This document shows, one piece after another, positions 2,904 to 41,542 of a stretch of 64,000 nucleotides of DNA (positions are counted from its first letter, which is position 1; each line of letters begins with the position of its first letter). The stretch covers positions 101,478-165,477 of the forward strand of contig JAZDHZ010000034.1 of the NCBI GenBank assembly GCA_043805415.1. The letters are read 5' to 3'. The notes beneath the pieces were generated by a model that saw only the letters and a list, made by a program, of their open reading frames with translations, searched no databases and had not been told where the DNA came from. This DNA comes from Candidatus Omnitrophota bacterium. Lineage in GTDB: Bacteria > Omnitrophota > Gorgyraeia > B26-G9. The position numbers and the translations under genes were made by a program.

Positions 2904-3056
2904 ATATCGAACAATTTTATCCGCCTGACTTTTTCCGCGTTTTCTTTGCTCCAAAAACAGAGAAGACTTGCTAACCCTAATCATTGGCATAAATTAGAGA
3001 AATAGTGTATAGTTAGGCAATATGTTTTGCGGATTACTTTAGAAAAAGCGGGAATC

Positions 3057-11184: not shown

Positions 11185-11185
11185 T

Positions 11186-26244: not shown

Positions 26245-27012
26245 ATGAAAAATCCGCTGCATAACAAAATAATCTGTATGGTTTGCTTATTTATTGCAAT
26301 CAGCAATACTGCTTTACCGGTTTTTGCTTTGAATAATCCGGAATCAAGCCGAAAATATTGCCTTTCCCCGTTTTTACGTATAATCAATTCTGATTTTCAA
26401 TCCAGATTTGAGAGTCTAAACTCTGACTTATTAGACAATAATTTAAACATGCCAGGGGATCTGAAAAGCCGCGCGCTGGTAGTTGGCAGGACAAGCATAA
26501 TTTTTAATAACAAAGAAATGAGCTTTTTTGAATTAACAAAAAGCCTAAACCTTTTACTTGCCAATGATCGATTTACTTACTTTGCCAGAATTGAAAAAGA
26601 TATGGTTAAATATGCGGCATTAAGCACTGTAGAGCAGCTTTTACTTGCTTTAAAGCAGTCAGAATTATCAGAATATGCTGAGCAAATTGATATTATTCTG
26701 GCAATTTTGCATCTTTCCGCTGAAGACGCGGCAATTATCCTTAGCGGCATTGAACCTTTGCAGCAAAAATCAATTACTAATCTTACTGATAAGGCCTGGA
26801 CGAATAAATTCAGAATGAAACGATTCAGCTTAACCATGGGCTATGAGCTTGATATTGCTAAAGCTTGGTATGTTAAAACATTGGAAACAGAGGCTGAGGA
26901 AAGACAGTGGTGGCATGCTATGTGCCGCAATTCAATGCCTATGAATATGTTTAAGGGTTTGAATGCTGATTTGCAGAAAAAAAATCATGGCTTAATTGAT
27001 GCTTCAATTTAA
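26245..27012 (+). CDS. terminal-signature family protein, function unknown
   Basis: Leader 'IICMVCLFIAISNTALPVFA', N-box 'CLSPFLRIINSDFQSRF', tail 'DASI-stop'. Confidence 0.7.
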   Translation: MKNPLHNKIICMVCLFIAISNTALPVFALNNPESSRKYCLSPFLRIINSDFQSRFESLNSDLLDNNLNMPGDLKSRALVVGRTSIIFNNKEMSFFELTKSLNLLLANDRFTYFARIEKDMVKYAALSTVEQLLLALKQSELSEYAEQIDIILAILHLSAEDAAIILSGIEPLQQKSITNLTDKAWTNKFRMKRFSLTMGYELDIAKAWYVKTLETEAEERQWWHAMCRNSMPMNMFKGLNADLQKKNHGLIDASI

Positions 27013-27274: not shown

Positions 27275-28969
27275 ATGCATTGTATTTTTTTAAAAAACTT
27301 AGCAAGAGGATTGTTAGTTAATACTGGTTTGCTTGGTTTGCTGGTATTAGCGCAGCTGGTATTACCAGCAAGTTATTTGCACGCGCAGCAAAGCACTAGT
27401 TTTCTCAGCACCAAGATAGAAACATTGGAAGGCCCGAAGCTAAAGAAAACCGCCAAAGTAGAGCAAGTACTGAGGAACCTGGATATTCCCGCGGAATTAG
27501 GGTTTATTAAAGAAATCCACGTGCCCAAGACTCCGACAGAAAAAATGATCATCAATATCCAGGATCTGCATTGTAATTATAAAGCCCAGAAAAACATAGC
27601 CGGCATACTTGAATATTTAACCCAGACCTATGGCTTAAAACTAATCAGCGTAGAAGGCGGATCCGGGAAAATTGATACCAGTTTTTATCAGGATTTACCG
27701 GATGAAAAAATCAAAGAACAAGTCGCGGATTATTTTTTACGCGAAGCCAGAATAAACGGCACAGAATACTTTGCCATTACCACTGATCGGTTGATCCGCT
27801 TATATGGAGCGGAAGATGAAAAATACTATGATAAAAACCTGGACGCGTTTATGCGGGCCCTGCCGGCAAGGGAAATTATTCTGGAGACAATCGCTGTATT
27901 AGAAAATGATCTGAACATTCTAAAAAACAAAAGCTATAATAAAAAGCTCAGAGAACTTGATGATCATATCGTGGCCTATGACAATGGAGAAATGGGATTT
28001 GAAGACTATATCCAATACATATCCAGATTATCCGCGGAACAAAACGTAAAGCAGGAATTTGACCAGGTAAACCAGCTGGTAGAAAGCATTAAATTCAAAG
28101 ACTCGATAAGCATAGAAAAAGCCGAAGCCCAGAGAAAAGAACTGATTGATCATCTGACCAGTAATTTGTCTCGATACGAGATGGAAGAATTTTTAAAAGC
28201 AACCGTAGAATATAAAGCAAAAACCATGGACAATCTGACCTATCACAGCACCTTGCAGAAACTATACAATCAAATGGATAAAAAGAGCCTGACTTTAGAT
28301 CGGAAATGGCCGGATTTAAATGGATACATTGAATACTTAAAAAGACATGAGACCTTGGATAAATTCGCTTTATTTACCCAGATCGACAAACTAGTGGAAC
28401 GGATAAAAAACAGTTTATATACCAGCTATACGCAAAAGACATTAGATTATAATTTAAAGATCGTCAGACTAGCCAGAAGCTTATTTTCCACCAAGCTGCT
28501 GAATAAAGATCTAACTTTAGTCAGCAAATACCACACAGACTTTAATGCTAAAAAGATGAAGACATATATTCAAAAAGAAGCCAAGCGGTTAAAGCTTGAT
28601 TTAGCTATACCGGATGATGAGCGGTTAAAGCAAATGGAAGAGACTTTACCGGCAGTAGAAGATTTTTATCGCTATGCTTCGAAGCGCAATGATATCCTGG
28701 CCAATAATACTTTGGACGGCATGGCTAAAGAAAACGAAGACATCGGAATCCTGATCACCGGAGGATTTCATACTGATGGTATAACCGATTACTTAAAAGA
28801 CAAAAGAATAACTTATATTGTAATCGTGCCCAAGATCGAAGAGCTGGAAACAGATGATACCCGCTATATTAATGCTTTGCAGGGCAAGAAAACGCCGTTT
28901 GAGGAAATGATTGAAAAAGAAGATAAATCAGCAGTAACTCCAGAAACTGCTGATTCAGCAACCCCTTGA
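27275..28969 (+). CDS. secreted hypothetical protein (possible Tiki/TraB/ChaN-like fold)
   Basis: Signal-like 'LLVNTGLLGLLVLAQLVLPASYLHA' and a weak N-box 'SFLSTKIETL', but the tail 'DSATP' is not the family tail. 'IINIQDLHCNY...ISVEGG' and 'ILITGGFHTDG' weakly recall GxxH-type Tiki/ChaN motifs. Confidence 0.65.
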   Translation: MHCIFLKNLARGLLVNTGLLGLLVLAQLVLPASYLHAQQSTSFLSTKIETLEGPKLKKTAKVEQVLRNLDIPAELGFIKEIHVPKTPTEKMIINIQDLHCNYKAQKNIAGILEYLTQTYGLKLISVEGGSGKIDTSFYQDLPDEKIKEQVADYFLREARINGTEYFAITTDRLIRLYGAEDEKYYDKNLDAFMRALPAREIILETIAVLENDLNILKNKSYNKKLRELDDHIVAYDNGEMGFEDYIQYISRLSAEQNVKQEFDQVNQLVESIKFKDSISIEKAEAQRKELIDHLTSNLSRYEMEEFLKATVEYKAKTMDNLTYHSTLQKLYNQMDKKSLTLDRKWPDLNGYIEYLKRHETLDKFALFTQIDKLVERIKNSLYTSYTQKTLDYNLKIVRLARSLFSTKLLNKDLTLVSKYHTDFNAKKMKTYIQKEAKRLKLDLAIPDDERLKQMEETLPAVEDFYRYASKRNDILANNTLDGMAKENEDIGILITGGFHTDGITDYLKDKRITYIVIVPKIEELETDDTRYINALQGKKTPFEEMIEKEDKSAVTPETADSATP

Positions 28970-29257: not shown

Positions 29258-32200
29258 ATGAATTATAAACAGAAATCAAAATTCAGGCTGATATTTAGAG
29301 TCATTGCCAGCGTGCTTTTACAGGCATTTTTATTTACAAATTTTGCCTGGTGCGGTGCTGATCAGTTTATTCAAGGCAATACTGTTTGCGCGCCGGCAAT
29401 TAGCAGTACAACTATTTCTCCCGCGATCCAAGTCACTGAAGCTTCAATTCAAACTCTTTTTGTTCAATCCGCCGCGTTCCAAATGGGCAAAAGAGCAGAG
29501 TTTAAAGGCCTTGATTCTTTAAAGCAGGCAGAAGTGGAAAATGCTTTAGGCGATAAATTTAGTTTAAGCCTGAATCTAAAAGGAAAGCTAAACACCGCGT
29601 CAGTTATTCAAAATATCGAAAAAAGAACAGATATCAAAGCGGATTATAAGAAGATCCTAAACGCGATGATCCTTGAATTCGGCAAACTGGATGTTAAGTT
29701 CTATTCATATGAGACATTAGTTGAGGACTTGTTCGGGTTTGCTTCTGCTGGCAATAAGATGATCGCGATTCATTCCTCGGTATTCAGTAATCCGATTGCT
29801 CAGACGCATGAAATCGGGGAATTCTTAGCGCAAGCAGGAATGCTGAATTTTTCGCTTGGCCAGGATGACCAGCTATTGATCAGCTTAAATGGCAGTTTAA
29901 TCGGCAGGATAAAATTATCGGAAGATGCTTTGGCAATCGCGAAGAAAGATCCGTCCAGTAACCATTATTTGCTGCGGGCTTTTCAACGGGAGGTTTTTCA
30001 GGATAAGGATCGGGCTTTAACCGCTGGGATTAAAAACAAGCAGGGGGATTTATCTTCCGCGATGAAAATTTTTCTTAAAACCATAAATGCTGAGACTGGA
30101 AACAAAGTTGAAGCAAGTATGTCTTTGTCTAAACTTAATGACCCGATGTTCGAGGCGCTGTTTAAAGATATTGAGTTTAATCGGTTTTCCGAAAACGATG
30201 CGGCAAAATTAAAGATAGCGATACTATTGCAGAATAACATTGCTATTGAGCCTATTGCTGAACCCTTGCTTCAAGAGTGCGGGATGCTGAATAAGGAATC
30301 CGCTGATCTTTATGAAACCATATTCCCGGCTGCGGGAACTCCTGGTTTTAGCCCAAAAAAATTATTCGCGAAAGAAAATGTTAATCCGGATAATCTGCAT
30401 CTTATCTTTGAATTAGCTAAGCGCTATAGTCCGATTAAAGCGTTTAGCGATAAGTTAGACAGAATCTACCGCGAGCTTGCCTTATACACATTGCCGGTAA
30501 GTCCGGGAGCAAGATATCATATATCTTTGCTTAAAGATCTAAACAGTATTTTATTGTCCGGAGGACGGATTAAAGAATCAAAGCACTCGCTTAGCGGTCA
30601 GGGTGTTTATTTCTTTGAAATGGGAAATTCCGGCTTAGTCAATGCGCAGACACGCTTAGCTGAGTTTTTCCCTTTTATCTCCAGCTCGCCGCATGATCTG
30701 GCAGATGCGGATTATGTGGTTAAGGCGTTCAGGCAAAAGATTGCCCGAGACGCGAAAGATAATGCCCGGATATTCCCGGTTGTAATCCAGGTTGCTGAGG
30801 ATATCCCGGCTGAAGCTGCGATGGGCTGGGCTTTTCGTGAGGATTATAAAAAGGCGGGAAAGCTTATCCGCGATGAACTTAATGCCCAAGAGTATGAATT
30901 TTTAATCAACCTGAATTATTTATATCTTAGCGAGAACCAAGCGGTTAAAAACCATTTGCTCGCGAAAAATATTATTAGAGAAGAAAACGGGATAATCAGG
31001 CTGGTTGATGCTTCGCGGGCGATTCAGGATGAAAACAAAAAGAATACGGGTTGGGCCAGAATGAGATTTGCTGACTTGCGTTATGAAGTGATCAATCTTT
31101 CCTACACAAAGCTGGATAGTGATATCCAGAAGCTTAGCGCCAAGATGGCTCAATTACTCCAGAATCTTCTCGCTGATAAAATGAGCGTATCTTCGGTTGT
31201 GGATACAGGCTCATCAAATCGCGGGCTTACTGTGGAAAATCCGGATTTTGATTTTCTGATTAAAATTAATTCCCCAGAGGATTTTACGGCAATTGTTAAG
31301 CTGCTGCTTGATGAAAAAATATTAGAAAATTTTCTCAAGGAGCATAAAGCTGCTTTTGAAGCGATCTATGGCGATAAGTCCGTGAGTATTGTCACCGAAC
31401 AGCCGCATGCCGTAGGCAAAGGCAATTTATATTTGTTTCCGTTTAAATTTGTCGCGGCTAACCGGATTGTCGGCGGGGTTGATTTTAATTTTTCCAAGCT
31501 TTCAGCGGGAAAAGCCGAGACTTTGAGCTATCACGAGACAGCGCGGCAGCAGCTGCAAGCCATACTGGATAAAGTTCCCGAAGCAGAACAAAAACAGCTT
31601 TCCCGCTATCTTGCCGGAGAAATTAAAACCCTTAAAAAATTAATTATAAATCAGGGTTTATATAAAGATAAGGATACAAAACGAAATAGATTTATCGGCG
31701 TGGCAGTAGAACAAATGATCTACAATCTCAGCGATTATCTGTCTATGCCAAGCAATATTTCCACTGCTGAAATTAAGAGCATATTTTCAATAAAAACCGC
31801 GCTTTATTTAATCAGCCGGATGGAAAGCGAAAGATTAAATGGTCTGTCATTTTCTCTGTATCAAAGAGCAAATGGAAGCGGGTTTTCTAATCAATCGGTA
31901 AAATACGATTTAAGGGATAATGAAAAATCAGTTATCCCTAAAGTTGGGACGGCTTTTGCCGGTTTTAAAGAGTTTTCAGAAGCGGAAAATGCCGGAGTGA
32001 AAAATAAAATTAAAGGATTAATAACTGATTTTATTAGCCGGCCGGGGAATAAGGTAAAAATTATTGAGTTTTTTGCCAGGTACAATAATGAAGTTGACGC
32101 GGCGATTGCTTTAGGTCAGGCGAAACCTTTTAGTAACTGGGAATTTTTTGAAAGATGGGAATTCACGCACCGGTTTTTTACTCTGCATAAAACAGAGATT

Positions 32201-32560
32201 GATATATTCGCGATAGATAAGACTGATATGTCTCAGGACGCGAAGCTGAAAATAGCGGAAATGATCAACGGATTAAAAGCCGGGATAACTGAGTCAATGG
32301 GTGTGAGTGAAGATAAAATTACCGGTCGGGAAATCACGCGGTGGTTTAAAACTCCTTCTTCGCGGAATAAGCAGCTGAGAGATTTTTATTTTCAATATGG
32401 GGCAATAACAGCAGAACCTATATCCATCCTGGGTTTTGCTGGGTTTTTAATGAATATTCCGGCATTGCGTTCGGCAGCTGATGCTGAGCGAAAAGCGGCG
32501 CCTTTAAGCGGTATTATAAACCGCAAGCCGCTCGAACAATTAGTCGGACAGTCAATATGA
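29258..32560 (+). CDS. terminal-signature family protein with PARP-like ADP-ribosyltransferase motif and Pol-beta-type nucleotidyltransferase motif
   Basis: Leader 'MNYKQKSKFRLIFRVIASVLLQAFLFTNFAWC', N-box 'TISPAIQVTEASIQTLF', tail 'GQSI-stop'. Internal 'YHIS..LNSILLSGGRI...SGQGVYFFEM' and 'DTGSSNRGLTVENPDFDFLI'. Confidence 0.85.
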   Translation: MNYKQKSKFRLIFRVIASVLLQAFLFTNFAWCGADQFIQGNTVCAPAISSTTISPAIQVTEASIQTLFVQSAAFQMGKRAEFKGLDSLKQAEVENALGDKFSLSLNLKGKLNTASVIQNIEKRTDIKADYKKILNAMILEFGKLDVKFYSYETLVEDLFGFASAGNKMIAIHSSVFSNPIAQTHEIGEFLAQAGMLNFSLGQDDQLLISLNGSLIGRIKLSEDALAIAKKDPSSNHYLLRAFQREVFQDKDRALTAGIKNKQGDLSSAMKIFLKTINAETGNKVEASMSLSKLNDPMFEALFKDIEFNRFSENDAAKLKIAILLQNNIAIEPIAEPLLQECGMLNKESADLYETIFPAAGTPGFSPKKLFAKENVNPDNLHLIFELAKRYSPIKAFSDKLDRIYRELALYTLPVSPGARYHISLLKDLNSILLSGGRIKESKHSLSGQGVYFFEMGNSGLVNAQTRLAEFFPFISSSPHDLADADYVVKAFRQKIARDAKDNARIFPVVIQVAEDIPAEAAMGWAFREDYKKAGKLIRDELNAQEYEFLINLNYLYLSENQAVKNHLLAKNIIREENGIIRLVDASRAIQDENKKNTGWARMRFADLRYEVINLSYTKLDSDIQKLSAKMAQLLQNLLADKMSVSSVVDTGSSNRGLTVENPDFDFLIKINSPEDFTAIVKLLLDEKILENFLKEHKAAFEAIYGDKSVSIVTEQPHAVGKGNLYLFPFKFVAANRIVGGVDFNFSKLSAGKAETLSYHETARQQLQAILDKVPEAEQKQLSRYLAGEIKTLKKLIINQGLYKDKDTKRNRFIGVAVEQMIYNLSDYLSMPSNISTAEIKSIFSIKTALYLISRMESERLNGLSFSLYQRANGSGFSNQSVKYDLRDNEKSVIPKVGTAFAGFKEFSEAENAGVKNKIKGLITDFISRPGNKVKIIEFFARYNNEVDAAIALGQAKPFSNWEFFERWEFTHRFFTLHKTEIDIFAIDKTDMSQDAKLKIAEMINGLKAGITESMGVSEDKITGREITRWFKTPSSRNKQLRDFYFQYGAITAEPISILGFAGFLMNIPALRSAADAERKAAPLSGIINRKPLEQLVGQSI
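30509..30640 (+). other. PARP/H-Y-E-clade ADP-ribosyltransferase-like signature
   Basis: 'ARYHISLLKDLNSILLSGGRIKESKHSLSGQGVYFFEMGNS' parallels the PARP1 sequence '[20 protein letters not shown]...GKGIYFADMVSKS'. This is pattern recall, not a search. Confidence 0.4.
31190..31265 (+). other. Pol-beta superfamily nucleotidyltransferase signature (GS-x9-12-DxD)
   Basis: 'VVDTGSSNRGLTVENPDFDFLIK'. Confidence 0.45.
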
Positions 32561-32602
32561 ATATTCTCTAGGGCAATATGATTGGGTAAATGGAACAAGA
32601 TA

Positions 32603-35600
32603 ATGAATTATAAAAAATCAAAATTCAGGCTAATCTTTAGAATAATCTCATTAGTGCTTATCCAGGCATTTCTGGTGCTTGATTTTGCCTGGGCAATAGG
32701 CGGAGAATTTCCTATTGCTGATAAAATTTCTCAGGCTGCTACGCTTGCCCCGAAAATTAGTTTAAACACTCAGGAAGTCTGGGATGCTTATGTTTACAGT
32801 TCGCAAAATTCAGCTAAGATCAATGAACTTTCCTTACCTTCTGATCAGCCGATGGTTAATATTCCCAACCAATCTCCCCTGATCAGCCGGAGAGCGTTTT
32901 TCAAAACTGTTGGGCAAAAGGTTATTGGGGCTGCCGCGGTATTAACCGGAGCGGATCTGATATTGTCGGCGCCGGCAGAAGCCAGAGACTTAACCGTGGC
33001 TTTAAGCGATTTAGTGATCAATTTTGATAAAGGGGTTGCTGAAGCGGAGTTAAATAAATATATCGCGATTATTGAAGCTCAGGGTTTTAAAGAGTTATAC
33101 AGTTTAGAAAAAAAACAAGCGCAGACATTAATCAGAATTAAGGGGTTATTCCCGCTGAACGCGGAAAAATTATCTTACGCGCTTAATGCTCAGGCTAAAG
33201 CCAGAGGTCTGGCCAAAGGGTTTGTGGTCACAGCTAGTGACGCGAGCTGGAAGCAATCGCTTACTTATCGGAGCATGCAGGCTTTTGCGAATAAAGTAGC
33301 GCGTCTTTCAGCCAGCCTGGGATTCGGGGAGATCGATTCTCCGCAGCTTATTGGGCTTTATGAGGGGATTACCTGGGTTGAGAGTAAATTTAACCAATGG
33401 GAAACCGATGCCCAGGGCAGAATCAGACCAGTAAGGTCATATACCAATGCTATCGGAGTTACCCAGGTTATAGAATCTCAGGCTGTTAAGCAGATTGCCA
33501 GGTGGATAGTAACGCATAAGGGTGGAATATCCCGCTACGCGGAAATCATGAATGAGCTGGAAAGAATGATTTCCTCTGATAGTGAAAAGCTAAAGAAATC
33601 ACTCAAGGCGAATAAGAAATTCGGGGAAGAAGCCGAAGCCCTGAAACAGTTTAATGTCTATGCTGATTTCGCGGCTTATAAAAATGCCGGATCAGATATT
33701 GAAAAACAAAAACAGATAATTCAACGAATTCACAGAAAGATCAATAGTAATCCTAAGCTTATCGGCGTGAATTTATATTACGCGCTTGCTGTTTGGCAGT
33801 ATTTACAAAACAGGAATAATCTGCGAGCGGGAGTTACCGCTGAGCTTGCCGAATCAATGGGGCAAACCGGACAAGGGCTGACCAGAAAAAATCTTCCGCT
33901 TATTGAATCCGGTTCCGGGGCATATCAGCCAATGGATCTGGAAAAAGCCGGCTTGCAGTTTGAGAGTGATTATTTCCGCTTAAATCTGCTTTATCAAATG
34001 ATTAATCCCGAGAAGATTGCTGAGCTTTTGCAAGGCGCGGAAAGTAAAATATTAGTCAACACCATGGAATACTTATCGCGGCAGATGATGACAAAAATAG
34101 GCAACCAAAAGCTTGGCTATACTTATCTTACGCTGAACTGGGATCGATACCGCCGCCTGGAACTAAGGAAAAATAAAAATAATCAATATGAGTTTACCGA
34201 AAGGCCTTTAAGTTATTTTCAAAATAAGCCTAATGGTTTTTCCGTGAGTCTTGCCGCGGCAGCTTCATATAATTCCGGGACTGGCAGTGTGGACGATGCT
34301 TTGCTGAATTTTGGTAATGCCGTAGACGCGAATAATCTTCCCTTATGGATTAAAAATATGATCGGAGCCAATCCCCAAAATATTCGGGAGCCGATAAATT
34401 ATTTAAGGGTTTTTCTGGAAGATAAGTTTAATAATACCGGAGATCTCTCGGCCCAAGAGCAAAAAATTAAAAACGAGCTTATTGCCGAACGCTATAAACG
34501 CGTTTATAAAATCCAAGACCGATTGCTGGAAAAAAGAGCTTTAATCCACAAAAACAAGGTTCGGATATACGCGGCTTATCGGCGCGATGATGGTTTTGAT
34601 TATAAGCTGGCTGCCTGGGTTGCCCAGATCGCGGGCAGTGATTATGTGGATAGTTTTTTAAGAACCCATGGATTGGATAAAAAATGGCAAGAGGAAATTC
34701 TTAAATCTTCCCAGACACTTGATATTTTAGCACCGGCTTTGGCAGATGTGAATTCGCCGGGATATGCTGCCGCGGTAAATATCCGGCGGTATTTAGATTC
34801 AAAACAGCTGGCTTCTTTGGCTAAGCGGCAAGAAGCCTTTAAGTCTAAAGAACAGGCCCGGATCGCGAGAATTGAACTGGCTAAACAAATATCTAAGGAA
34901 AAACAATGGCAGAAAACCCTGGAGGGAATGACCAGCTGGGCAATGCGTTCCACGGTCGGGGTTGCTTCGCTTGGCGCGGCCGGCGCGATTGCCTGGATTA
35001 TAAACCGCAGGGTCAAGCTGGGTAAAAAACCAGTGCCTTCGCTTATCTATCGGCTGCCATTGCAGGGTTTTTGGATTCTGGGATTTGTTACTGTCCGGCT
35101 GTTCGCGATAGTTGGAAAAATTCTGTTTGGAACCGGTAAATATGTATTCAGCTTTTTTGCTAAAGCAAAACCGCGGATAAATAAACCAAGAAGCGCGCTT
35201 CTTGCCGATCAAAAGGTAGTTAGAAATAACCGGGTTAAACAAGCGGAAAACAGATATAAAAATAAGAACCGCTTTTTTTCAATAGCTAATTTAAAAAAAC
35301 TGATTCTGGGATCAATCTTACTGGCAATAATTGCCTGGCCTTTTGCTTCCCCGGCTTTTTCTCACGCGTCGCAAAAGCAGGCACAAGCTCCTCCGGCAAT
35401 TAGTTTAAGCCAAGAATTTAAAAAAGGCTTAATTGAAATCAGTAAGAAAAGTGACCATAAGCAGCTGAATGCTCAGGGCGAGCTTACCACAATAAAAGCT
35501 AATTTAAAAAAGAATCTTGAATTCAGCAATAGCAAAGCCCGGGAAAGGGTAGAGCAGATCAATCAGTTAGCGGAAAGAAATTGGCAAAAAGCGTATGTTA

Positions 35601-38600
35601 ATGGCGAATTAGATGAATACATAACAAAAAGAGGGCAGTCAGAAGATGCTCTTGCGATTGGCAAGGCGCTGTTTATTTTGCAAAGCGCTGCTCCGGAAAT
35701 TTATCAAGGTTTAAAAAAATATAATGCTTCTATATATCTGGCAGAGATCCCCTTCTATGGTTACGCGCGCGGTTCACGAGTATTTGGGCTTGGCGGCAAA
35801 CCAATGGTATTTGTAAATAAAGATTTTCTGAATAATCCTTTCAAAATCGCGCTTGTTTTATCTCACGAAGGTCATCACGCGATTCTTTTGCCCAAAGATT
35901 TACTGGAATCCGCGCTGCGGTATAATTTTTTTACTTTTATCAGGGATGTATTGTACAGTATTCCCCAGGGGGAAAAAGAAGCTTTCGAGATCCAGGCGGG
36001 AGTGGCCAGAGTTTTTTATATTGAGCCGATAAAAGGAAATATGTCTTATGACCCGCTTGATGTGGAAATTGCTTATGGTAGTCAGAAATGGCAAATAGTT
36101 GGGTTGGATATTTTAGGTACCGGCTTGTTCAATGTTATTCCTTTGATTGCCGGATGGTTAATCCTAAAGTTTTTTATGAATAGCAGCCGCGCTGGAAAAA
36201 GCCGAGATTATCAAAGATCAGGCAGCGGGGGATTGTCTAATCTGATAAACAGCAATTCAAGAAATAACAAGCGTCTGATTAGAAAAGGACGCGGTAAACG
36301 CAAAGGGAATTTCTTTTGGTCAATTATTTTAATCCCTTTGCTTGCTTTTCAATTCAGCAGTTTTCTTAGTCCCGCGATTACTCAAGCAAGTGATGTTTTT
36401 ATCCAGCCTCAGGAGAAAACAGAAATAACCGAGTATAAAAATGAACAGATTATAAATCCGATCCTTGGCACTGATCTTAAAGTAAACTCCCATTTTGGCC
36501 CACAGGAAGGAAAGCATAATAACGCGTTAGCTGATTGGTCCGAGGCGGTGATCAGAGGAGTTATTCAGCCCAACGCGGATATAATCCATGTTGATTTTCA
36601 TGCTGATGATTCCGGCGCGGTAATGGACGCGGATATGCTGGCCTTGAACGAAGTTAAGAATTTAAAAACTTCTCAGGAAAAAATCCAGGCAGTGCGGGAT
36701 ATCGCGGCTCATCTGAGAATAGATTCGTTTTATTACCCGGCTTATTTAACCGGACCAACCGGTCAATCAATATTGGGCACAACCTTTTGGGTTCGTCCGG
36801 AAGCAGAATGGCAGGGCGCGGCGAAAGAGCAATATATTGTCAGTGCTCCCTATGGAACGTTCCCCACGGATCATCCTGAGAAATATCCAAATGACAAGAG
36901 GATCAAAAGGTATGAGCTTAATGCCGATGATTTATCTTTAGTCGGGAAAAATGCTCAGTTAAAAAATGGGTTTATTCTGGACATTGATCTGGATTATTTT
37001 ACTTTGCATCGGGAAGATATGAATTGGGTTTATATGCGGGAGCTGCTTGAAAGAAAAGATGAAGCTTCTCAGAAATTAGCAAAGTCGATTCTTAAGACAG
37101 TCCACTATCAGCCGACCAGGCAGCAGCTGCAAAAAAATATTGATTTGTTTATTGACCAGCTCGCGAAGCTGCATGAACGCGGTATAGACCCGGGAATCAT
37201 TTCTGTTTTTGAATCACCGAATTTTACAGCTTATGCTGATGCTAAATGGGTAAATGACCAGTTAGTAAAGGGGTTCAAAGCTATTTACGGCAAAGGCTCT
37301 GCTTTAGCCGCGAAAGACCAGAAACCAAAGAGCGCGGCAAGCTCTGGCTGGAAAAAAATCTCAATCATGGGATTGGTGTCTGTAATCTCCGCGTCTTTTG
37401 CTAATTTGTTTTCCGTGGCTAATCTCTGGGCCATGGAAAATGGAGCGGATAAGGCTTTTGCTTCCTCTGATTTTAAATCAATAGTAACCTACCTTATCAC
37501 AATCGCCTTAATTGGCTTTTTAGTTAAATCGGGATTAAAAGCGCTTAGTTTAGCTAAACAAAAAAACGCGGAACAGCAGGCCGCGGTGATTGTTCCCAGC
37601 CAGGCGGCTTTGGATAAATTAAAAAAATTAGACACTGACATCAGCGCTTTATTTGCTCAAGGGAAAACTCAGGTTATTATCGCCTTTGACGGTCCCTCCG
37701 GCGCGGGCAAGACAACATTGGCTAATTATATTAAGGCAGTTGGTATTGCCGGAATACAGCCATCTGAAATACAGGTATTGTCGCGTGATGATTACGCGGT
37801 TGGCGGTGATTATAATGAGGCGAATATCGTGATTTTAGAAAAAATCTGGCATCGCGGAAAATTAGTTATTGTTGAGGGCAATGGAATCCAGTGGGCCAGT
37901 GCGGTATTAGCAGCAGATGCCGCGTATGCTAATCCGGATATATTTGTTAAAATAACCGCTGCTGAACAGCTGCGCAAACAAAGGCTATTAGAAAAAGGCT
38001 TGTCAGAGTCAGCGGCAAGTGAGCGGATTAGAACAGCATCTGGTCCTGATTCCGGTTTGTTTGATATTATTATTCAAGATCCTTATATCGAGGTTAACAG
38101 CTTGCGCAAGTCCGCGGAATATATAAAGGCTGAGAGCATATTGCGTTCATATCCTAATGACTCCGGCCTTGCTTTAATTCGTGAATTTGTCTTAGATCAA
38201 ATGCTTAGTTCTGATCGGCGCGGTATTATTGTTTATCATAATGAGCGCCATCTTAATGAGTTGTTTGAGTTTTTTGATGCAATATCAAAGCATTTACCGT
38301 TTAAAAATAAAGCCAGCGCCGAGCGTTTGATCCGCATGGCGATTTATCTGCATGATCTGGGCTACTTTTATTCAGAAGATGGATTGCTTATTCCTGGGCA
38401 TGAACAAAGAAGTAAAGATGAGGTTCTTGAATTTGTTAAGAAAAATCCCGGAATATTGTCCGCGGTTGAAGTCCAGTCGATTATGTATCTGATTGATAAA
38501 ACGCAGCTTAAAACCGGTGACGCGATTAAAAATGAAATCAGCGATGATAATAAAACCTATGACTTGCTGGATCGAATTAATAACGCGCAAGAATCAGGTT

Positions 38601-41542
38601 TAACTGCTGAGGATCAACAGTTTTTAGCAAGTTTTATGGAAAAAAACTTTCCGGACGCGAATCCGCGGAATCCGCGAGACCGGCAGCTGGTGCTGGATAC
38701 TATTTTGGGTGGCAAAGCCTTGGCTTTAGCGGATATCTGGGGCCAGGACCAGACATATCTTTATCAGGTTGCTTTATTAAGTCAGGAATTCCGTTATGAT
38801 AAACAGATAATGCTGAATAATAATGATCCTAACGCAGCCAAAAGCCCGGCAGCTATGAGCAATCTGGAACAGGTCGGGGGAAGCAGCGGATTCCAAAGCT
38901 TTGCTCAAGACATGAGGTTTGTTTTCTTTTTAAATAGCGCGGATTATCCGATGCTGGGCATGCAGCAGTATCTTGACGCGGAACAAAAGGAAAAACAAGC
39001 AAAAGGGGAAAAAGAAAAAGCGCTTATTGACCGCAGAACAGCGATGATTGAAAAGAGCAATCAGGTTCAATCTTTAACCAATGTTTTGACCAGCGGAGTT
39101 GATGAAAACCTTAATATCATCGGCCTGGCTAAAGACACTGATCAGCTTCCTCAGGTTATAGCTTTAAAAGAATTTATCGATGAAGGCCTTGGATTAGGCA
39201 TATACGATGACGCGCAAAAAGCGCAGTTAATCTCGGAAATAAACAGCAGAAACGGACTGATTTTCCGGGGAATAGACAATCAGTTTGATCTAGCGGTAGA
39301 CGCTGCTTACATCGCGGAGCTTGCTCCGACTGTTGATGATATATTAATCAGTTCAAAATTTGCTGAAATTTTAAGTGAGCAGGAATTAGCGGAATTGACT
39401 TCTTCCTGGGAGATTAAGAAGTTTTCTCCTGGTCAAGCGATTGTCCAACAGGATATTCCTGATGCGCAAGGGGTTTTTCTGATCCTATCCGGAAATCTGG
39501 ATGTTTTTGTCAATGGATATCATGTGGGGGAAATTCCTCAGGGTGAGCTGTTTGGGGAAATGTCAGTGCTTGATAGTGCTTTGCGCAGCGCCACTGTAAG
39601 AGTTTCTCAGCTTGCCAGCCAGCAGGCGGTAATCGCGGAAATACCAGCGCCTGTATTCACTAAATTATTCGGGGCAAACCGACAGCTGAAACAAAAGATT
39701 AAAGCCCTGATTCAGACAAGAAAAGAAAATTCGCGAAAGGTTTTGGACGCGGAAGAAGAAAAAGATGATGAAGTAAAATTAAAACATAAATTTGAAAGCG
39801 GCCAGCTGGATACAGTGGTTTTTGTTGATGTTGATCTGATGCGTTTAACCAATCAGTATGTTGCCAAGAAAAATGTGAATGTTTTGCTTGATGTTCTGGA
39901 AACAGAATTTGAAAAAGTGATAAAAGCTCTGGGCGCTGAAAATGCCGTAAGCCTGCGCCGCGGAGGAGATGAATTTATTCTGGCAATTAATTCCCGCGAA
40001 AATAAGCAGCAAGCGATTGATATTGCCGCAAAACTTAAAAATAATGTTCAGAGCGCGAAATTTTCGCTTGCTTCAATCGGAACTGACAGGCTTTCTCAGG
40101 AAAGAATCGCGGAAATCGAAAGTTTTGGATGCGGCATAGACACGATCGGTAAGCATAATATTATAATTGTTGGGCAGAAAACAGGCGGTAAAACAGGCCG
40201 GGCTTGTGTGCAGGAATTTCTCGATACAGTCAATGCCATTAGCAGCTTAAAAAATCCGGAAAACCCGGAAGCGGAAGTTTTAAGCATTCAAAGCTCTTGG
40301 CTGGACCAGCCGGCTGTTAACAATGAAGTTAGTTTTACCTTGTCAATCGGCTTGGCAAATGTATCTGAAATTGACAATGTGCCTGGATCTAATCTTTATG
40401 AAAAAGCGCGCAACTTCGCGGCGCAAAGAAAAGATAAATCAAAAGAAATATTTAAAAAACTCGGAGATGGACATATTGAAGCTGTTTCCAGTTTCGCGCC
40501 CTTGGGCGTGGCTGGGGAGAGTATTCTTTTGACTGAGCAAGCAATTGCTGAGCACGCAGATTTCGAACAGCTGCAGGCTGAAGCTAATCGCCTGGAAGCT
40601 GAGCAAATGGAAGCTGAGCAAATCCCGACAGGCATCAGGCATAAGTTTGCCGAAGGTGAGGAGGTATTGTATTTTTCTTCAGAAAATGCCGCGCGGAGTC
40701 ATCTTAACGCGATGCGAGACAATCAGGAACTTAATGCGGCGATTGCTTTTTCGCTGCAAGGATTGGGTTATTATGATCAGGAAGGAAAGATTGATCAATA
40801 TAAAGCGGAATACTACACTTCCCCTGGGGCAGTTAAAGATAATCGGATAGATATCCGTGATTTTAAAGTGGTTAATGAAGCGCATGGCTATGTGGCGGGT
40901 GATGAAATTATCGCGCGCCTGCGCATCGGCGCGATGCGCTTTGCCAGGTTATTTGAGAACTTTGATCTGGTATTTGCCCGCGGCCCTCCGGCAGGACCAA
41001 ATGGATTTCTTATTCCAAAAACAAAACAAGCCGCTGAAATGAACCCAACAGAAGTGCAGGTAATGTTTGTTGAATATATGCGGCAAATAAGAGATTATTT
41101 TAATAAACCGAATGAATCGGCTGTAAAAGTCGGGCAGTTAAGAGTTGTTTGGGATCGAGTTAGCCAAGAGGATAAAAATATCGGAAATGTGATCGAGCGG
41201 ATTAGTCAGACACGCGCGGTTTATGAACAAAAAACTAAACCGAAAAAAGGCAGAAACATGGTTTTAAGATATGATCCTAGTATCCCGGATAAGTGGAGCT
41301 CATTAGCGGAACTTAATGCCCCGGATGCTGTCGCGCAGCTTGAGAATCTTAAAATTATATGGCAGCAAAATAAGCAGCAGTTAGATGCTTTTGCTAATTC
41401 CCGGAAAGTTAGCGGAACCCTGAGACTTGGCACAAAGATTGATTCCATAGATCCTGGATTGCGCGGACCTGCGTTTTCTCTGCAAGGTGATAATCTTAAT
41501 CAGCAATCAAAAAATATCTCTCTTCTGGAACAAGCGATTTAA
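32603..41542 (+). CDS. 2,979-aa mosaic terminal-signature family protein (SLT / HExxH / arginase-fold-like / P-loop / HD / cNMP-binding / GGDEF x2) with multiple TM segments
   Basis: Leader 'MNYKKSKFRLIFRIISLVLIQAFLVLDFAWA', N-box 'TLAPKISLNTQEVWDAY', tail 'EQAI-stop'. ATG 32603 preferred over TTG 32582 by homology to the 29258 leader. Confidence 0.9.
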   Translation: MNYKKSKFRLIFRIISLVLIQAFLVLDFAWAIGGEFPIADKISQAATLAPKISLNTQEVWDAYVYSSQNSAKINELSLPSDQPMVNIPNQSPLISRRAFFKTVGQKVIGAAAVLTGADLILSAPAEARDLTVALSDLVINFDKGVAEAELNKYIAIIEAQGFKELYSLEKKQAQTLIRIKGLFPLNAEKLSYALNAQAKARGLAKGFVVTASDASWKQSLTYRSMQAFANKVARLSASLGFGEIDSPQLIGLYEGITWVESKFNQWETDAQGRIRPVRSYTNAIGVTQVIESQAVKQIARWIVTHKGGISRYAEIMNELERMISSDSEKLKKSLKANKKFGEEAEALKQFNVYADFAAYKNAGSDIEKQKQIIQRIHRKINSNPKLIGVNLYYALAVWQYLQNRNNLRAGVTAELAESMGQTGQGLTRKNLPLIESGSGAYQPMDLEKAGLQFESDYFRLNLLYQMINPEKIAELLQGAESKILVNTMEYLSRQMMTKIGNQKLGYTYLTLNWDRYRRLELRKNKNNQYEFTERPLSYFQNKPNGFSVSLAAAASYNSGTGSVDDALLNFGNAVDANNLPLWIKNMIGANPQNIREPINYLRVFLEDKFNNTGDLSAQEQKIKNELIAERYKRVYKIQDRLLEKRALIHKNKVRIYAAYRRDDGFDYKLAAWVAQIAGSDYVDSFLRTHGLDKKWQEEILKSSQTLDILAPALADVNSPGYAAAVNIRRYLDSKQLASLAKRQEAFKSKEQARIARIELAKQISKEKQWQKTLEGMTSWAMRSTVGVASLGAAGAIAWIINRRVKLGKKPVPSLIYRLPLQGFWILGFVTVRLFAIVGKILFGTGKYVFSFFAKAKPRINKPRSALLADQKVVRNNRVKQAENRYKNKNRFFSIANLKKLILGSILLAIIAWPFASPAFSHASQKQAQAPPAISLSQEFKKGLIEISKKSDHKQLNAQGELTTIKANLKKNLEFSNSKARERVEQINQLAERNWQKAYVNGELDEYITKRGQSEDALAIGKALFILQSAAPEIYQGLKKYNASIYLAEIPFYGYARGSRVFGLGGKPMVFVNKDFLNNPFKIALVLSHEGHHAILLPKDLLESALRYNFFTFIRDVLYSIPQGEKEAFEIQAGVARVFYIEPIKGNMSYDPLDVEIAYGSQKWQIVGLDILGTGLFNVIPLIAGWLILKFFMNSSRAGKSRDYQRSGSGGLSNLINSNSRNNKRLIRKGRGKRKGNFFWSIILIPLLAFQFSSFLSPAITQASDVFIQPQEKTEITEYKNEQIINPILGTDLKVNSHFGPQEGKHNNALADWSEAVIRGVIQPNADIIHVDFHADDSGAVMDADMLALNEVKNLKTSQEKIQAVRDIAAHLRIDSFYYPAYLTGPTGQSILGTTFWVRPEAEWQGAAKEQYIVSAPYGTFPTDHPEKYPNDKRIKRYELNADDLSLVGKNAQLKNGFILDIDLDYFTLHREDMNWVYMRELLERKDEASQKLAKSILKTVHYQPTRQQLQKNIDLFIDQLAKLHERGIDPGIISVFESPNFTAYADAKWVNDQLVKGFKAIYGKGSALAAKDQKPKSAASSGWKKISIMGLVSVISASFANLFSVANLWAMENGADKAFASSDFKSIVTYLITIALIGFLVKSGLKALSLAKQKNAEQQAAVIVPSQAALDKLKKLDTDISALFAQGKTQVIIAFDGPSGAGKTTLANYIKAVGIAGIQPSEIQVLSRDDYAVGGDYNEANIVILEKIWHRGKLVIVEGNGIQWASAVLAADAAYANPDIFVKITAAEQLRKQRLLEKGLSESAASERIRTASGPDSGLFDIIIQDPYIEVNSLRKSAEYIKAESILRSYPNDSGLALIREFVLDQMLSSDRRGIIVYHNERHLNELFEFFDAISKHLPFKNKASAERLIRMAIYLHDLGYFYSEDGLLIPGHEQRSKDEVLEFVKKNPGILSAVEVQSIMYLIDKTQLKTGDAIKNEISDDNKTYDLLDRINNAQESGLTAEDQQFLASFMEKNFPDANPRNPRDRQLVLDTILGGKALALADIWGQDQTYLYQVALLSQEFRYDKQIMLNNNDPNAAKSPAAMSNLEQVGGSSGFQSFAQDMRFVFFLNSADYPMLGMQQYLDAEQKEKQAKGEKEKALIDRRTAMIEKSNQVQSLTNVLTSGVDENLNIIGLAKDTDQLPQVIALKEFIDEGLGLGIYDDAQKAQLISEINSRNGLIFRGIDNQFDLAVDAAYIAELAPTVDDILISSKFAEILSEQELAELTSSWEIKKFSPGQAIVQQDIPDAQGVFLILSGNLDVFVNGYHVGEIPQGELFGEMSVLDSALRSATVRVSQLASQQAVIAEIPAPVFTKLFGANRQLKQKIKALIQTRKENSRKVLDAEEEKDDEVKLKHKFESGQLDTVVFVDVDLMRLTNQYVAKKNVNVLLDVLETEFEKVIKALGAENAVSLRRGGDEFILAINSRENKQQAIDIAAKLKNNVQSAKFSLASIGTDRLSQERIAEIESFGCGIDTIGKHNIIIVGQKTGGKTGRACVQEFLDTVNAISSLKNPENPEAEVLSIQSSWLDQPAVNNEVSFTLSIGLANVSEIDNVPGSNLYEKARNFAAQRKDKSKEIFKKLGDGHIEAVSSFAPLGVAGESILLTEQAIAEHADFEQLQAEANRLEAEQMEAEQIPTGIRHKFAEGEEVLYFSSENAARSHLNAMRDNQELNAAIAFSLQGLGYYDQEGKIDQYKAEYYTSPGAVKDNRIDIRDFKVVNEAHGYVAGDEIIARLRIGAMRFARLFENFDLVFARGPPAGPNGFLIPKTKQAAEMNPTEVQVMFVEYMRQIRDYFNKPNESAVKVGQLRVVWDRVSQEDKNIGNVIERISQTRAVYEQKTKPKKGRNMVLRYDPSIPDKWSSLAELNAPDAVAQLENLKIIWQQNKQQLDAFANSRKVSGTLRLGTKIDSIDPGLRGPAFSLQGDNLNQQSKNISLLEQAI
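32882..32986 (+). other. internal twin-arginine (Tat)-like signal motif
   Basis: 'ISRRAFFKTVGQKVIGAAAVLTGADLILSAPAEA' has SRRxF(F/L)K, an h-region and AxA, about 95 aa after the protein's own Sec-type leader. Confidence 0.5.
33347..33505 (+). other. lytic transglycosylase (SLT) catalytic motif
   Basis: 'ITWVESKFNQ...SYTNAIGVTQVI' follows the E-S ... GLMQ-type SLT signature. Confidence 0.65.
35251..35440 (+). other. internal copy of the family leader plus N-box module
   Basis: 'RYKNKNRFFSIANLKKLILGSILLAIIAWPFASPAFSHA-SQKQAQAPPAISLSQEFKKGL' has a basic n-region, hydrophobic core, AxA-like site and an 'PAISLSQEF' box. Compare 'DFAWA...TLAPKISLNTQEV' at the true N-terminus. Confidence 0.5.
35864..35878 (+). 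other. HExxH zincin-like motif
   Basis: 'LVLSHEGHHAILLP'. Confidence 0.4.
37691..37717 (+). other. P-loop (Walker A) of a nucleoside/nucleotide-kinase-like domain
   Basis: 'IIAFDGPSGAGKTTLANYI'. Confidence 0.7.
38240..38560 (+). other. HD phosphohydrolase domain
   Basis: 'NERHLNELFEFF ... AIYLHDLGY'. Confidence 0.6.
39421..39610 (+). other. cyclic-nucleotide-binding domain
   Basis: 'FSPGQAIVQQDIPDAQGVFLILSGNLDV...GELFGEMSVLDSALRSATVRV'. Confidence 0.8.
39814..40340 (+). other. GGDEF domain (intact RGGDEF at 39959-39976)
   Basis: 'VVFVDVDLMRLTNQY...SLRRGGDEFILAI'. A second, degenerate GGDEF-like region lies at about 40850-41010 ('FKVVNEAHGYVAGDEIIARL'). Confidence 0.75.

What the first reader, a model, noticed from the sequence alone, without database searches (positions are those of the whole stretch)
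30509..31265. Possible PARP-like ADP-ribosyltransferase plus nucleotidyltransferase pair inside a family protein
'ARYHISLLKDLNSILLSGGRIKESKHSLSGQGVYFFEMGNS' mirrors the NAD-binding core of H-Y-E ARTs. The PARP1 equivalent is '[20 protein letters not shown]...GKGIYFADMVSKS'. About 220 residues later, 'DTGSSNRGLTVENPDFDFLIK' fits the Pol-beta NTase GS...DxD signature. ART domains are hallmark toxin and effector modules, and a combination with an NTase in a leader-bearing 1,100-aa protein would be novel. This rests on pattern recall only.
Basis: inference. Interest (0 to 1): 0.55.

Follow-up and report, generated by a model that had tools for sequence, protein, structure and literature searches.

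The report
Real nucleotidyltransferase, unproven ADP-ribosyltransferase
A 1,100-residue protein with an export-type leader, from an uncultured Omnitrophota bacterium, contains a genuine and probably active nucleotide-adding enzyme domain, but no test I could run supported the PARP-like ADP-ribosyltransferase proposed next to it.

Summary
The ORF is 100% identical to a hypothetical protein of a Candidatus Omnitrophota MAG.

**NTase half: correct.**
- G651-S652, R655, D663, D665 and a third Asp (D742) are invariant in all 8 relatives.
- The AlphaFold model is confident here (pLDDT 75-92).
- The family consensus passes Pfam NTP_transf_2.

**ART half: not supported.**
- No ART profile matches any of the 3 homologues or their consensus.
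- hhalign against a PARP profile gives probability 12%; against Tpt1/KptA, 0.09%.
- The proposed catalytic His is Gln in the closest homologue, and neither candidate Glu is invariant.
- Two AlphaFold runs left this region below pLDDT 50, so the fold remains untested.
- The block is still real: it is the conservation peak of an uncharacterised ~200-aa domain that precedes the NTase in the three closest relatives.

**Verdict:** a new, rare, divergent member of a known enzyme superfamily in an Omnitrophota modular protein. An ART-NTase pair is not shown. Modest interest.

The parts
29258..32560 (+). ORF of 1,100 aa. Modular protein with an N-terminal leader, from a Candidatus Omnitrophota MAG.
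   Evidence: 100% identical to NCBI 'MAG: hypothetical protein V1747_07845 [Candidatus Omnitrophota bacterium]'.
29258..29356 (+). N-terminal leader (aa 1-33): basic n-region, hydrophobic core, 'FAWC|G' with small residues at -3 and -1. Predicted Sec signal peptide or signal anchor (inferred).
   Evidence: Hydropathy peak at aa 7-34. The same leader type occurs on several other ORFs of the window.
29414..29434 (+). Post-leader motif 'ISPAIQV'. This is the family-wide 'LSPxLxI' motif about 20 aa after the leader.
   Evidence: Read directly from the N-termini listed. Coordinates.
29456..30124 (+). N-terminal module (aa 67-289; 'QMGKRAE...EDLFGFA...NPxAxxHExGE...HYLLRAxQRExF'). It is an uncharacterised module repeated in giant proteins. 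It is absent from P0002.
   Evidence: Most of the 86 hits of the full HMMER search match only this part. 118 copies in 77 proteins, one copy in the window. No Pfam or PDB match.
30470..31093 (+). Conserved domain of unknown fold (aa 405-612) directly upstream of the NTase. It is found only in P0002 and P0004, and in part in P0029.
   Evidence: No Pfam or PDB match. AlphaFold pLDDT below 50 for aa 413-545 and 57-80 for aa 546-607.
30509..30631 (+). The 'PARP-like' block (aa 418-458). It is the conservation peak of the protein. H421 and Y451 are the proposed ART residues.
   Evidence: H421 is Q in P0002. Weak PARP similarity only.
31109..31837 (+). Pol-beta-superfamily nucleotidyltransferase domain (aa ~618-860): catalytic lobe plus helical second lobe.
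31208..31252 (+). Catalytic signature G651-S652-x2-R655-G...P662-D663-F-D665 (hG[GS]x10DhD).
   Evidence: Invariant in 8 sequences. Sub-threshold Pfam NTP_transf_2 and MTPAP-like hits lie exactly here.
31481..31483 (+). D742, the third catalytic carboxylate, in strand 'GGVDFNF'.
   Evidence: Invariant. Lies in predicted strand aa 736-747.
31622..31714 (+). Second-lobe motif 'I-K-x-L-K-x6-G-L-Y ... G-x-A-V-E-Q' (aa 789-819), resembling the neck motif of archaeal CCA-adding enzymes.
   Evidence: L792, K793, G800, Y802, G814, E818 and Q819 are invariant. Weak profile hits to archaeal CCA-adding enzyme chains (E 0.16) and Pfam tRNA_NucTransf2 (E 0.075) fall at this position.
31838..32557 (+). C-terminal region (aa 861-1100) of unknown function. 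It is shared only with P0002 and ends in the tail '...LVGQSI'.
27275..28969 (+). Upstream gene (564 aa, unknown function). It is a conserved neighbour, and in P0003 it is fused to copies of the N-terminal module.
   Evidence: fusion in P0003. (72% identical C-terminus upstream of P0002).
32582..41542 (+). Downstream gene (2,986 aa) with the same leader and tail. It contains UPF0489, cNMP-binding and weak GGDEF domains. It is a conserved neighbour.
   Evidence: A homologue lies directly downstream of P0002 (46% identity over 366 aa).

Best explanation
ORF 29258-32560 encodes a modular Omnitrophota protein. In order it has a Sec-type leader, a repeat module typical of the phylum's giant proteins, a conserved ~200-aa domain of unknown fold, a genuine two-lobed Pol-beta-superfamily nucleotidyltransferase (aa ~618-860) and an unknown C-terminal region.

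**Shown here**
- The NTase fold.
- Strict conservation of the complete catalytic set: G651-S652, R655, D663, D665 and D742.
- A CCA-enzyme-like second-lobe motif.

**Inferred from established NTase chemistry**
- The GS loop, and possibly R655 and K793, hold the NTP triphosphate. The roles of R655 and K793 are my own assignment.
- The three Asp residues hold two Mg2+.
- NMP is transferred to a hydroxyl acceptor. By nearest structural neighbours this is most likely an RNA 3' end. Less likely are a second nucleotide (cyclic or oligonucleotide synthesis) or a protein or small molecule.

**The 'PARP-like' block**
It is the conserved core of the adjacent unknown domain. That domain travels with the NTase as a cassette in P0002 and P0004, and I read it as a substrate-binding or regulatory partner. 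It is not demonstrably an ADP-ribosyltransferase.

**Speculative**
The leader and the conserved three-gene neighbourhood suggest the protein is exported or membrane-anchored together with its giant neighbour, possibly acting on or in another cell.
For: - **Catalytic residues:** invariant in 8 sequences that are 23-36% identical to the window sequence.
- **Model:** AlphaFold pLDDT 75-92 over aa ~618-854, with the canonical order helix, strand, GS loop, strand carrying DxD, later strand carrying D.
- **Foldseek against PDB:** 57 hits at E<=1e-3; the 50 listed are all poly(A) polymerases, GLD-2, TUT1, TUT7, Cid1, Trf4 or the MenT3 toxin.
- **Pfam:** NTP_transf_2 at 17.5 bits for the window sequence and 26.2 bits (cut-off 21) for the family consensus.
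- **Weak profile hits at the expected motifs:** OAS2, archaeal CCA-adding enzyme and a minimal NTase.
- **Cassette:** P0004, a 7,281-aa protein, matches aa 327-862 as one block.
- **Synteny:** the same upstream and downstream genes flank P0002.
- **ART tests, negative or marginal:**
Against: - No substrate or activity is known.
- The window sequence alone is below the Pfam threshold.
- An NTP-dependent enzyme behind a signal peptide is puzzling unless it is delivered into another cell or the leader acts only as an anchor.
- The neighbouring domain could not be modelled (pLDDT below 50), so a divergent ART or another enzymatic fold cannot be excluded.
- The marginal PARP profile similarity (1 of 150 shuffles) is not zero.
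- Only three sequences carry that domain, so profile methods have little power.
Confidence: 0.75

Rival explanations
1. Residues ~405-560 form a divergent PARP-like H-Y-E ADP-ribosyltransferase, with H421, Y451 and E545 or E547. This would make an ART-NTase two-enzyme effector.
For: - BLASTP and hhalign both reproduce the H / IL..G.RI / GxGVYF alignment to PARP1.
- The hhalign score of 28.3 compares with a shuffle mean of 15.1 +/- 3.0, and 1 of 150 shuffles reaches it.
- The block is the conservation peak of the protein.
- The predicted strand-helix-strand order around it is compatible with an ART fold.
Against: - hhalign probability is only 12%, and the alignment ends before the Glu strand.
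- No Pfam ART family matches at E<=10 for the three members or their consensus.
- No ART appears in the PDB profile search.
- The Tpt1/KptA profile gives probability 0.09%.
- PADLOC and NCBIfam give nothing.
- H421 is Q in P0002, E547 is K in P0004 and E545 is Q in P0002.
- Foldseek on the low-confidence model gives 0 hits at E<=1e-3.
- The match was picked post hoc from a 64-kb window.
Confidence: 0.12
2. The NTase is a second-messenger synthase of the CD-NTase/OAS type rather than an RNA 3'-end transferase. It would signal to the cNMP-binding and GGDEF-containing giant protein encoded directly downstream.
For: - The motif 'GSSxRGT...DxD' resembles OAS and CD-NTase loops (own knowledge).
- Weak Pfam SMODS hit (E 0.073) and weak OAS2 hit (E 0.034).
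- The conserved downstream neighbour has cNMP-binding and weak GGDEF domains.
Against: - TUTase, PAP and CCA-adding enzymes score the same or slightly higher.
- No CBASS-type effector or Cap genes were seen in the Pfam scans of the neighbours, and PADLOC gave no hit to the NTase protein.
- The second-lobe motif is closest to archaeal CCA-adding enzymes.
Confidence: 0.15
3. The NTase-fold domain is a catalytically dead scaffold, like NF45/NF90 or MiD49/51, and the protein is purely structural.
Against: The GS loop and all three carboxylates are invariant in 8 sequences that are 23-36% identical to the window sequence. Dead NTase folds characteristically lose these residues (own knowledge).
Confidence: 0.06

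Closest known systems
Non-canonical poly(A)/poly(U) polymerases (TENT/TUTase family: TUT7, GLD-2, Cid1, Trf4) and canonical PAP
- Same two-lobed catalytic plus central-domain layout.
- Same GS...DxD...D active site.
   Different: - Only 9-15% sequence identity.
- No PAP-associated or nucleotide-recognition motif was detected by Pfam.
- The setting is bacterial, behind an export-type leader, in a multi-module protein.
- RNA substrate untested.
Archaeal class I CCA-adding enzyme (e.g. A. fulgidus, PDB 4x4n/1r89)
- 'GSxxRGT...DxD' head motif (comparison from own knowledge).
- Second-lobe motif 'LKxxxxxxG(I/L)Y...GxxGxxxEQL', which aligns to the CCA-enzyme neck (PDB profile E 0.16; Pfam tRNA_NucTransf2 E 0.075).
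   Different: - All sequence scores are below threshold.
- No body or tail tRNA-binding domain was recognised.
- The context is an Omnitrophota modular protein, not a housekeeping tRNA enzyme.
CD-NTases / OAS / cGAS (SMODS)
   Different: The SMODS hit is only E 0.073. There is no CBASS operon partner. Product unknown.
PARP catalytic domain (H-Y-E ADP-ribosyltransferases)
   Same: Local pattern 'H-x-S ... IL..G.RI ... GxGVYF', aligned by BLASTP and hhalign.
   Different: - Probability 12%.
- The His is not conserved.
- No conserved Glu aligns.
- No ART profile or fold hit.
- The Tpt1 clade test is negative.
Omnitrophota giant multi-enzyme proteins ('Archaeovorins', bioRxiv 10.1101/2023.11.21.568195; 10.64898/2026.06.07.730766)
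   Same: - Same phylum.
- N-terminal signal or transmembrane segment followed by a string of cytoplasmic-type enzyme modules.
- The N-terminal module of this protein recurs in proteins of 2,000-7,700 aa, and the NTase cassette sits inside the 7,281-aa P0004.
   Different: - At 1,100 aa this is a small member.
- Neither paper contains the word 'nucleotidyltransferase' or the term 'ADP-ribosyl'.

Membership tests
Pol-beta-superfamily nucleotidyltransferase | hG[GS] loop preceding the first catalytic strand | tested here: met
   G651-S652 are invariant in 8 sequences.
Pol-beta-superfamily nucleotidyltransferase | [DE]h[DE]h carboxylate pair 9-13 residues after GS | tested here: met
   D663-F-D665-F lies 10 residues after S652 and is invariant. 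It sits in a predicted strand.
Pol-beta-superfamily nucleotidyltransferase | Third carboxylate on a later strand | tested here: met
   D742 in 'GGVDFNF' is invariant. Strand aa 736-747.
Pol-beta-superfamily nucleotidyltransferase | NTase alpha/beta fold | tested here: met
Pol-beta-superfamily nucleotidyltransferase | Pfam NTP_transf_2 gathering score (21 bits) | tested here: inconclusive
   The window sequence scores 14.6-17.5 bits, below the cut-off. The consensus of the 8-sequence family scores 26.2 bits, above it.
Pol-beta-superfamily nucleotidyltransferase | Mg2+-dependent nucleotidyl transfer | not testable with these tools
   Needs biochemistry.
H-Y-E (PARP/diphtheria-toxin-like) ADP-ribosyltransferase | Significant profile match to an ART family | tested here: not met
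   - Pfam gives none at E<=10 for 3 members and the consensus.
- PDB profile search gives none.
- hhalign against a 120-sequence PARP profile gives probability 12%.
- hhalign against a 14-sequence Tpt1/KptA profile gives 0.09%.
- PADLOC and NCBIfam give none.
H-Y-E (PARP/diphtheria-toxin-like) ADP-ribosyltransferase | Conserved catalytic His on strand 1 | tested here: not met
   H421 in the window and in P0004, but Q in P0002.
H-Y-E (PARP/diphtheria-toxin-like) ADP-ribosyltransferase | Conserved Tyr on strand 2 (GxGxYF) | tested here: met
   Y451 and G447/G449 are invariant in the 3 sequences.
H-Y-E (PARP/diphtheria-toxin-like) ADP-ribosyltransferase | Conserved catalytic Glu (or Asp/Gln) on strand 5 | tested here: inconclusive
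   Candidate positions vary: E545 reads E/Q/E/D and E547 reads E/E/K/E across the four sequences. The PARP alignment does not reach this strand.
H-Y-E (PARP/diphtheria-toxin-like) ADP-ribosyltransferase | ART split beta-sheet fold | tested here: inconclusive
   aa 413-545 has pLDDT below 50 in two AlphaFold runs. Foldseek on that model gives no hit at E<=1e-3.
Archaeal class I CCA-adding enzyme | Head plus neck domains with family-level sequence match | tested here: inconclusive
Archaeal class I CCA-adding enzyme | Body and tail tRNA-binding domains | tested here: not met
CD-NTase (CBASS) / SMODS | SMODS profile match and an operon with an effector or Cap genes | tested here: not met
   SMODS E 0.073, below the cut-off. 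PADLOC gives no hit to the protein. The neighbours are not CBASS components.

The most novel reading that the evidence does not exclude
The conserved aa 405-612 domain is an extremely divergent NAD+-using ART-fold enzyme (PARP-like N-terminal half with a relaxed H/Q-Y-E/Q/D triad) that is obligatorily coupled to a CCA/TUTase-like nucleotidyltransferase. The cassette would be exported via the leader/tail signals of Omnitrophota giant proteins, to modify nucleic-acid ends or proteins of a prey or host cell.
Probability: 0.1. Interest if true: 0.6.

Novelty: new member of a known kind. Interest (0 to 1): 0.3.

Why it matters
The result gives a first functional handle on one module of the largely unannotated modular and giant proteins of Omnitrophota, a phylum of ultra-small, possibly predatory or parasitic bacteria. 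That handle is an apparently active nucleotidyltransferase.

The NTase family is very rare, with about 8 representative clusters among 1.84 billion, and no single sequence of it passes a Pfam threshold.

The work also shows that the more exciting claim, a fused ART toxin domain, currently rests on a short motif only. This saves effort on a probable false lead.

The conserved unknown domain next to the NTase, and the leader/tail signature shared by the neighbouring genes, are better targets for follow-up.

Tried and rejected
1. **Family and structure searches of the whole protein and sub-regions.** Pfam, NCBIfam, PADLOC and PDB sequence searches gave only sub-threshold NTase hits.
2. **AlphaFold of aa 327-640 with a 4-sequence alignment.** Mean pLDDT was 52 and the ART-like core was below 50, so it is unusable. 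Foldseek on that model returned noise only; two Vis-toxin ART rows at E~5 and probability 0.01-0.02 are not evidence.
3. **Deepening the alignment of the ART-like domain.**
   - A word-index search with the alignment returned only P0029.
   - Scans of GTDB genomes and JGI metagenomes found no relatives.
   - The first attempt failed for lack of conserved stretches.
4. **hhalign against PARP and Tpt1/KptA.** Against a real PARP profile the result was marginal. Against a real Tpt1/KptA profile, built from 13 plasmid genes plus E. coli KptA, it was negative.
5. **An ART-like region in other relatives.** By eye, the region upstream of the NTase in P0065 and P0082 ('MHQT...ILTAGYIIP...VHFS') looked Tpt1-like. 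hhalign found no relation to the window domain or to PARP, and Pfam found nothing. Rejected.
6. **Internal duplication.** The unknown domain is not a second, dead NTase. The only hhalign hit was the 31-residue overlap between the two alignments.
7. **tblastn of the domain against phages and plasmids.** Nothing relevant.
8. **DarT resemblance.** A resemblance to 'YHIT..NL..IL..G.L' is recalled from memory only. Pfam and PADLOC gave no match of any kind to this region; I assume but did not verify that both libraries include DarT models.

Full report
**Observation**

The window carries a 1,100-aa ORF at 29258-32560 on the + strand. The protein is 100% identical to an NCBI entry, 'MAG: hypothetical protein V1747_07845 [Candidatus Omnitrophota bacterium]'. 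It starts with a basic plus hydrophobic leader; the hydropathy peak is at aa 7-34.

**Relatives**

A word-indexed search found only one near-full-length homologue, P0002 (893 aa, 37% identity), plus a partial one. An exhaustive HMMER profile search of 1.84 billion cluster representatives gave 86 hits.
- Most hits match only aa ~70-265. This is an uncharacterised module that recurs up to four times in proteins of 2,000-7,700 aa: 118 copies in 77 proteins, one copy in this window, and no Pfam or PDB match.
- One 7,281-aa protein, P0004, matches aa 327-862 as a single block.
- Five proteins (P0029, P0048, P0065, P0082, P0086) match only aa ~620-860.

The protein is therefore modular. The NTase-like part is an independent evolutionary unit. 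In the window protein, P0002 and P0004 it is preceded by the same ~200-aa domain, the one that contains the 'PARP-like' block. P0029, an N-terminally truncated fragment, carries the C-terminal half of that domain.

**The NTase half**

An 8-sequence alignment, with members 23-36% identical to the window sequence, has these invariant residues: G651, S652, R655, P662, D663, D665, Y704, D742, Y758, L792, K793, G800, Y802, G814, E818 and Q819. That set comprises the complete hG[GS]-x10-DhD signature, a third carboxylate on a later strand, and a second-lobe motif.

Sequence evidence:
- The window sequence alone is sub-threshold against Pfam NTP_transf_2 (14.6-17.5 bits against a cut-off of 21) and MTPAP-like.
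- The family consensus passes NTP_transf_2 at 26.2 bits, E 1.1e-5. It also gives weak hits to SMODS and to the second domain of archaeal tRNA nucleotidyltransferase.
- A family profile against PDB sequences gives weak hits at the expected positions to OAS2 (E 0.034), archaeal CCA-adding enzymes (E 0.16) and a minimal NTase.

Structural evidence:
- An AlphaFold2 model of aa 395-920 is confident over aa ~618-854 (pLDDT 75-92). It shows the canonical order of helix, strand, GS loop, DxD strand and D-bearing strand, followed by a helical lobe.
- Foldseek against the PDB returns 57 hits at E<=1e-3. The 50 listed are all poly(A) polymerases, GLD-2, TUT1, TUT7, Cid1, Trf4 or the MenT3 NTase toxin.

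The fold, the catalytic residues and their strict conservation establish a Pol-beta-superfamily NTase of the two-lobed PAP / TUTase / class-I CCA / OAS-CD-NTase type. It is probably active. Which acceptor it uses cannot be decided, because these subfamilies score equally.

**The ART half**

The block is real. Against P0002, aa 430-459 is the identity peak of the whole protein (63% against 36% overall).

Every formal test is negative or marginal:
- No Pfam family matches at E<=10 for the window region. No ART family matches for the three members scanned individually or for their consensus.
- NCBIfam and PADLOC give no match to this region.
- A profile search of PDB sequences finds no ART.
- hhalign against a 120-sequence PARP profile, built from database sequences, gives probability 12% and score 28.3. 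The null from 150 column shuffles is 15.1 +/- 3.0, and one shuffle exceeds the observed score. This is roughly a 1% event, for a motif chosen post hoc from a 64-kb window.
- hhalign against an independent ART clade gives probability 0.09%. That was a 14-sequence Tpt1/KptA profile assembled from annotated plasmid genes.
- The alignment to PARP ends before the strand that should carry the catalytic Glu.
- The proposed triad is not conserved in the tiny family. H421 is Gln in P0002. Of the two candidate Glu residues, E545 is Gln in P0002 and E547 is Lys in P0004. Only Y451 and the GxG are invariant.

Two AlphaFold runs left aa 413-545 below pLDDT 50. A Foldseek search with that model found nothing at E<=1e-3. 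The fold is therefore untested rather than refuted. No further homologues could be found to deepen the alignment.

My reading is that this is a conserved domain of unknown fold, functionally coupled to the NTase. I put the chance that it is a very divergent ART at about 10-12%.

**Context**

The gene sits in a conserved triad.
- The upstream 564-aa gene (27275-28969) and the downstream 2,986-aa gene (32582-41542) both have homologues flanking P0002 on its contig, from a different sample.
- The downstream gene has the same leader and contains UPF0489, cNMP-binding and weak GGDEF domains.
- In P0003 a homologue of the upstream gene is fused to copies of the N-terminal module.

Two preprints describe Omnitrophota giant proteins as signal-peptide or transmembrane-bearing strings of cytoplasmic-type enzyme domains, possibly used against other cells (bioRxiv 10.1101/2023.11.21.568195; 10.64898/2026.06.07.730766). 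A term search found 'nucleotidyltransferase' and 'ADP-ribosyl' in neither. This 1,100-aa protein looks like a small member of that world.

**Mechanism**

Shown: the NTase fold and its active-site residues.

Inferred from established NTase chemistry: the GS loop, and possibly R655 and K793, position the NTP triphosphate (the roles of R655 and K793 are my own assignment). D663, D665 and D742 bind two Mg2+. NMP is transferred to a 3'-OH-type acceptor, most likely RNA.

Speculative: export via the leader, with action outside the producer's cytoplasm.

**Verdict**

The NTase half of the finding is correct. It is a new, rare and divergent member of a known superfamily. The ART half, and therefore the 'novel ART+NTase pair', is not supported by any test available here. 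Interest is modest.

Noticed in passing
window ORFs 3027-3809, 6256-11184, 11120-15142 (true start probably the ATG at ~11186), 26245-27012, 29258-32560, 32582-41542, 41723-43429, 48991-51357, 53147-55489: Several + strand ORFs share an N-terminal leader: a basic N-terminus and a hydrophobic core such as 'LIQAFL..NFAWA'. About 10-20 aa later comes a motif like 'TLSPxLxI....LQ..F'. Homologous giant proteins from other metagenomes start with 'NNIAWAYPD'-type leaders followed by 'LAPxS'. This may be a lineage-specific sorting signal.
   Followed up: partly
C-termini of window ORFs ending at 11184, 15142, 27012, 32560, 41542, 43429, 51357, 55489: The ORFs with this N-terminal signature almost all end in a common C-terminal tail...IGQAI...LIGQAI...LVGQSI...LLEQAI...CQEAI...IEHSI...VLNSI...IDASI. 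The exception is 3027-3809, which ends ...LDGSV. ORFs without the leader (SMC, GH116, amidase) lack the tail. P0002 ends ...LLGQSI. Related giant proteins end in ...LFLLAA...ALQMA or ...ILRSL. An N-leader paired with a C-tail suggests a dedicated recognition or sorting system. I did not search the literature for it.
   Followed up: partly
window 29456-30124 (aa 67-289 of the target): An uncharacterised ~200-aa module ('QMGKRAE...EDLFGFA...NPxAxxHExGE...HYLLRAxQRExFxxxDRxL') occurs as 118 copies in 77 mostly giant proteins, up to 4 per protein. It has no Pfam or PDB match.
   Followed up: partly
window 27275-28969; locus L001 7659-13190 (P0003); locus L015: The upstream 564-aa protein of unknown function ('INIQDLHCNY...ITGGFHTDG') is fused in P0003 to three copies of the N-terminal module. 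A homologue also precedes P0002. The order 564-aa gene, NTase gene, giant gene is conserved in a second organism.
   Followed up: partly
window 17669-21625: The SMC protein (1,318 aa) carries a glycogen-binding CBM48/AMPK1_CBM module (aa 667-744, E 3.4e-13) just after the hinge. This is an unusual insertion for an SMC.
   Followed up: no
window 6256-15142: Two large ORFs with this leader type carry starch/glycogen-type domains: GH77 4-alpha-glucanotransferase in a 1,642-aa protein, and an alpha-glucan water dikinase N-terminal Ig-like domain in a 1,340-aa protein. GH116 and other glycoside hydrolases lie further downstream.
   Followed up: no
window 32582-41542: The 2,986-aa neighbour combines UPF0489, cNMP-binding and weak GGDEF domains behind the same leader. 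By eye it also has a P-loop kinase-like 'GPSGAGKTT' and an 'HEGHH' metallopeptidase-like motif. PADLOC hits to PycTIR and TIR-effector models fall on the cNMP-binding segment only.
   Followed up: no
P0065 aa ~790-960 and P0082 aa ~1300-1470 (not in the window): In two other giant proteins a different conserved region precedes the same NTase family ('GHLAMHQTK..L.E.I.T.GY.IPA...VHFSID...YA.VYPLEM'). It looked Tpt1-like by eye, but hhalign shows no relation to the window's domain or to PARP.
   Followed up: yes
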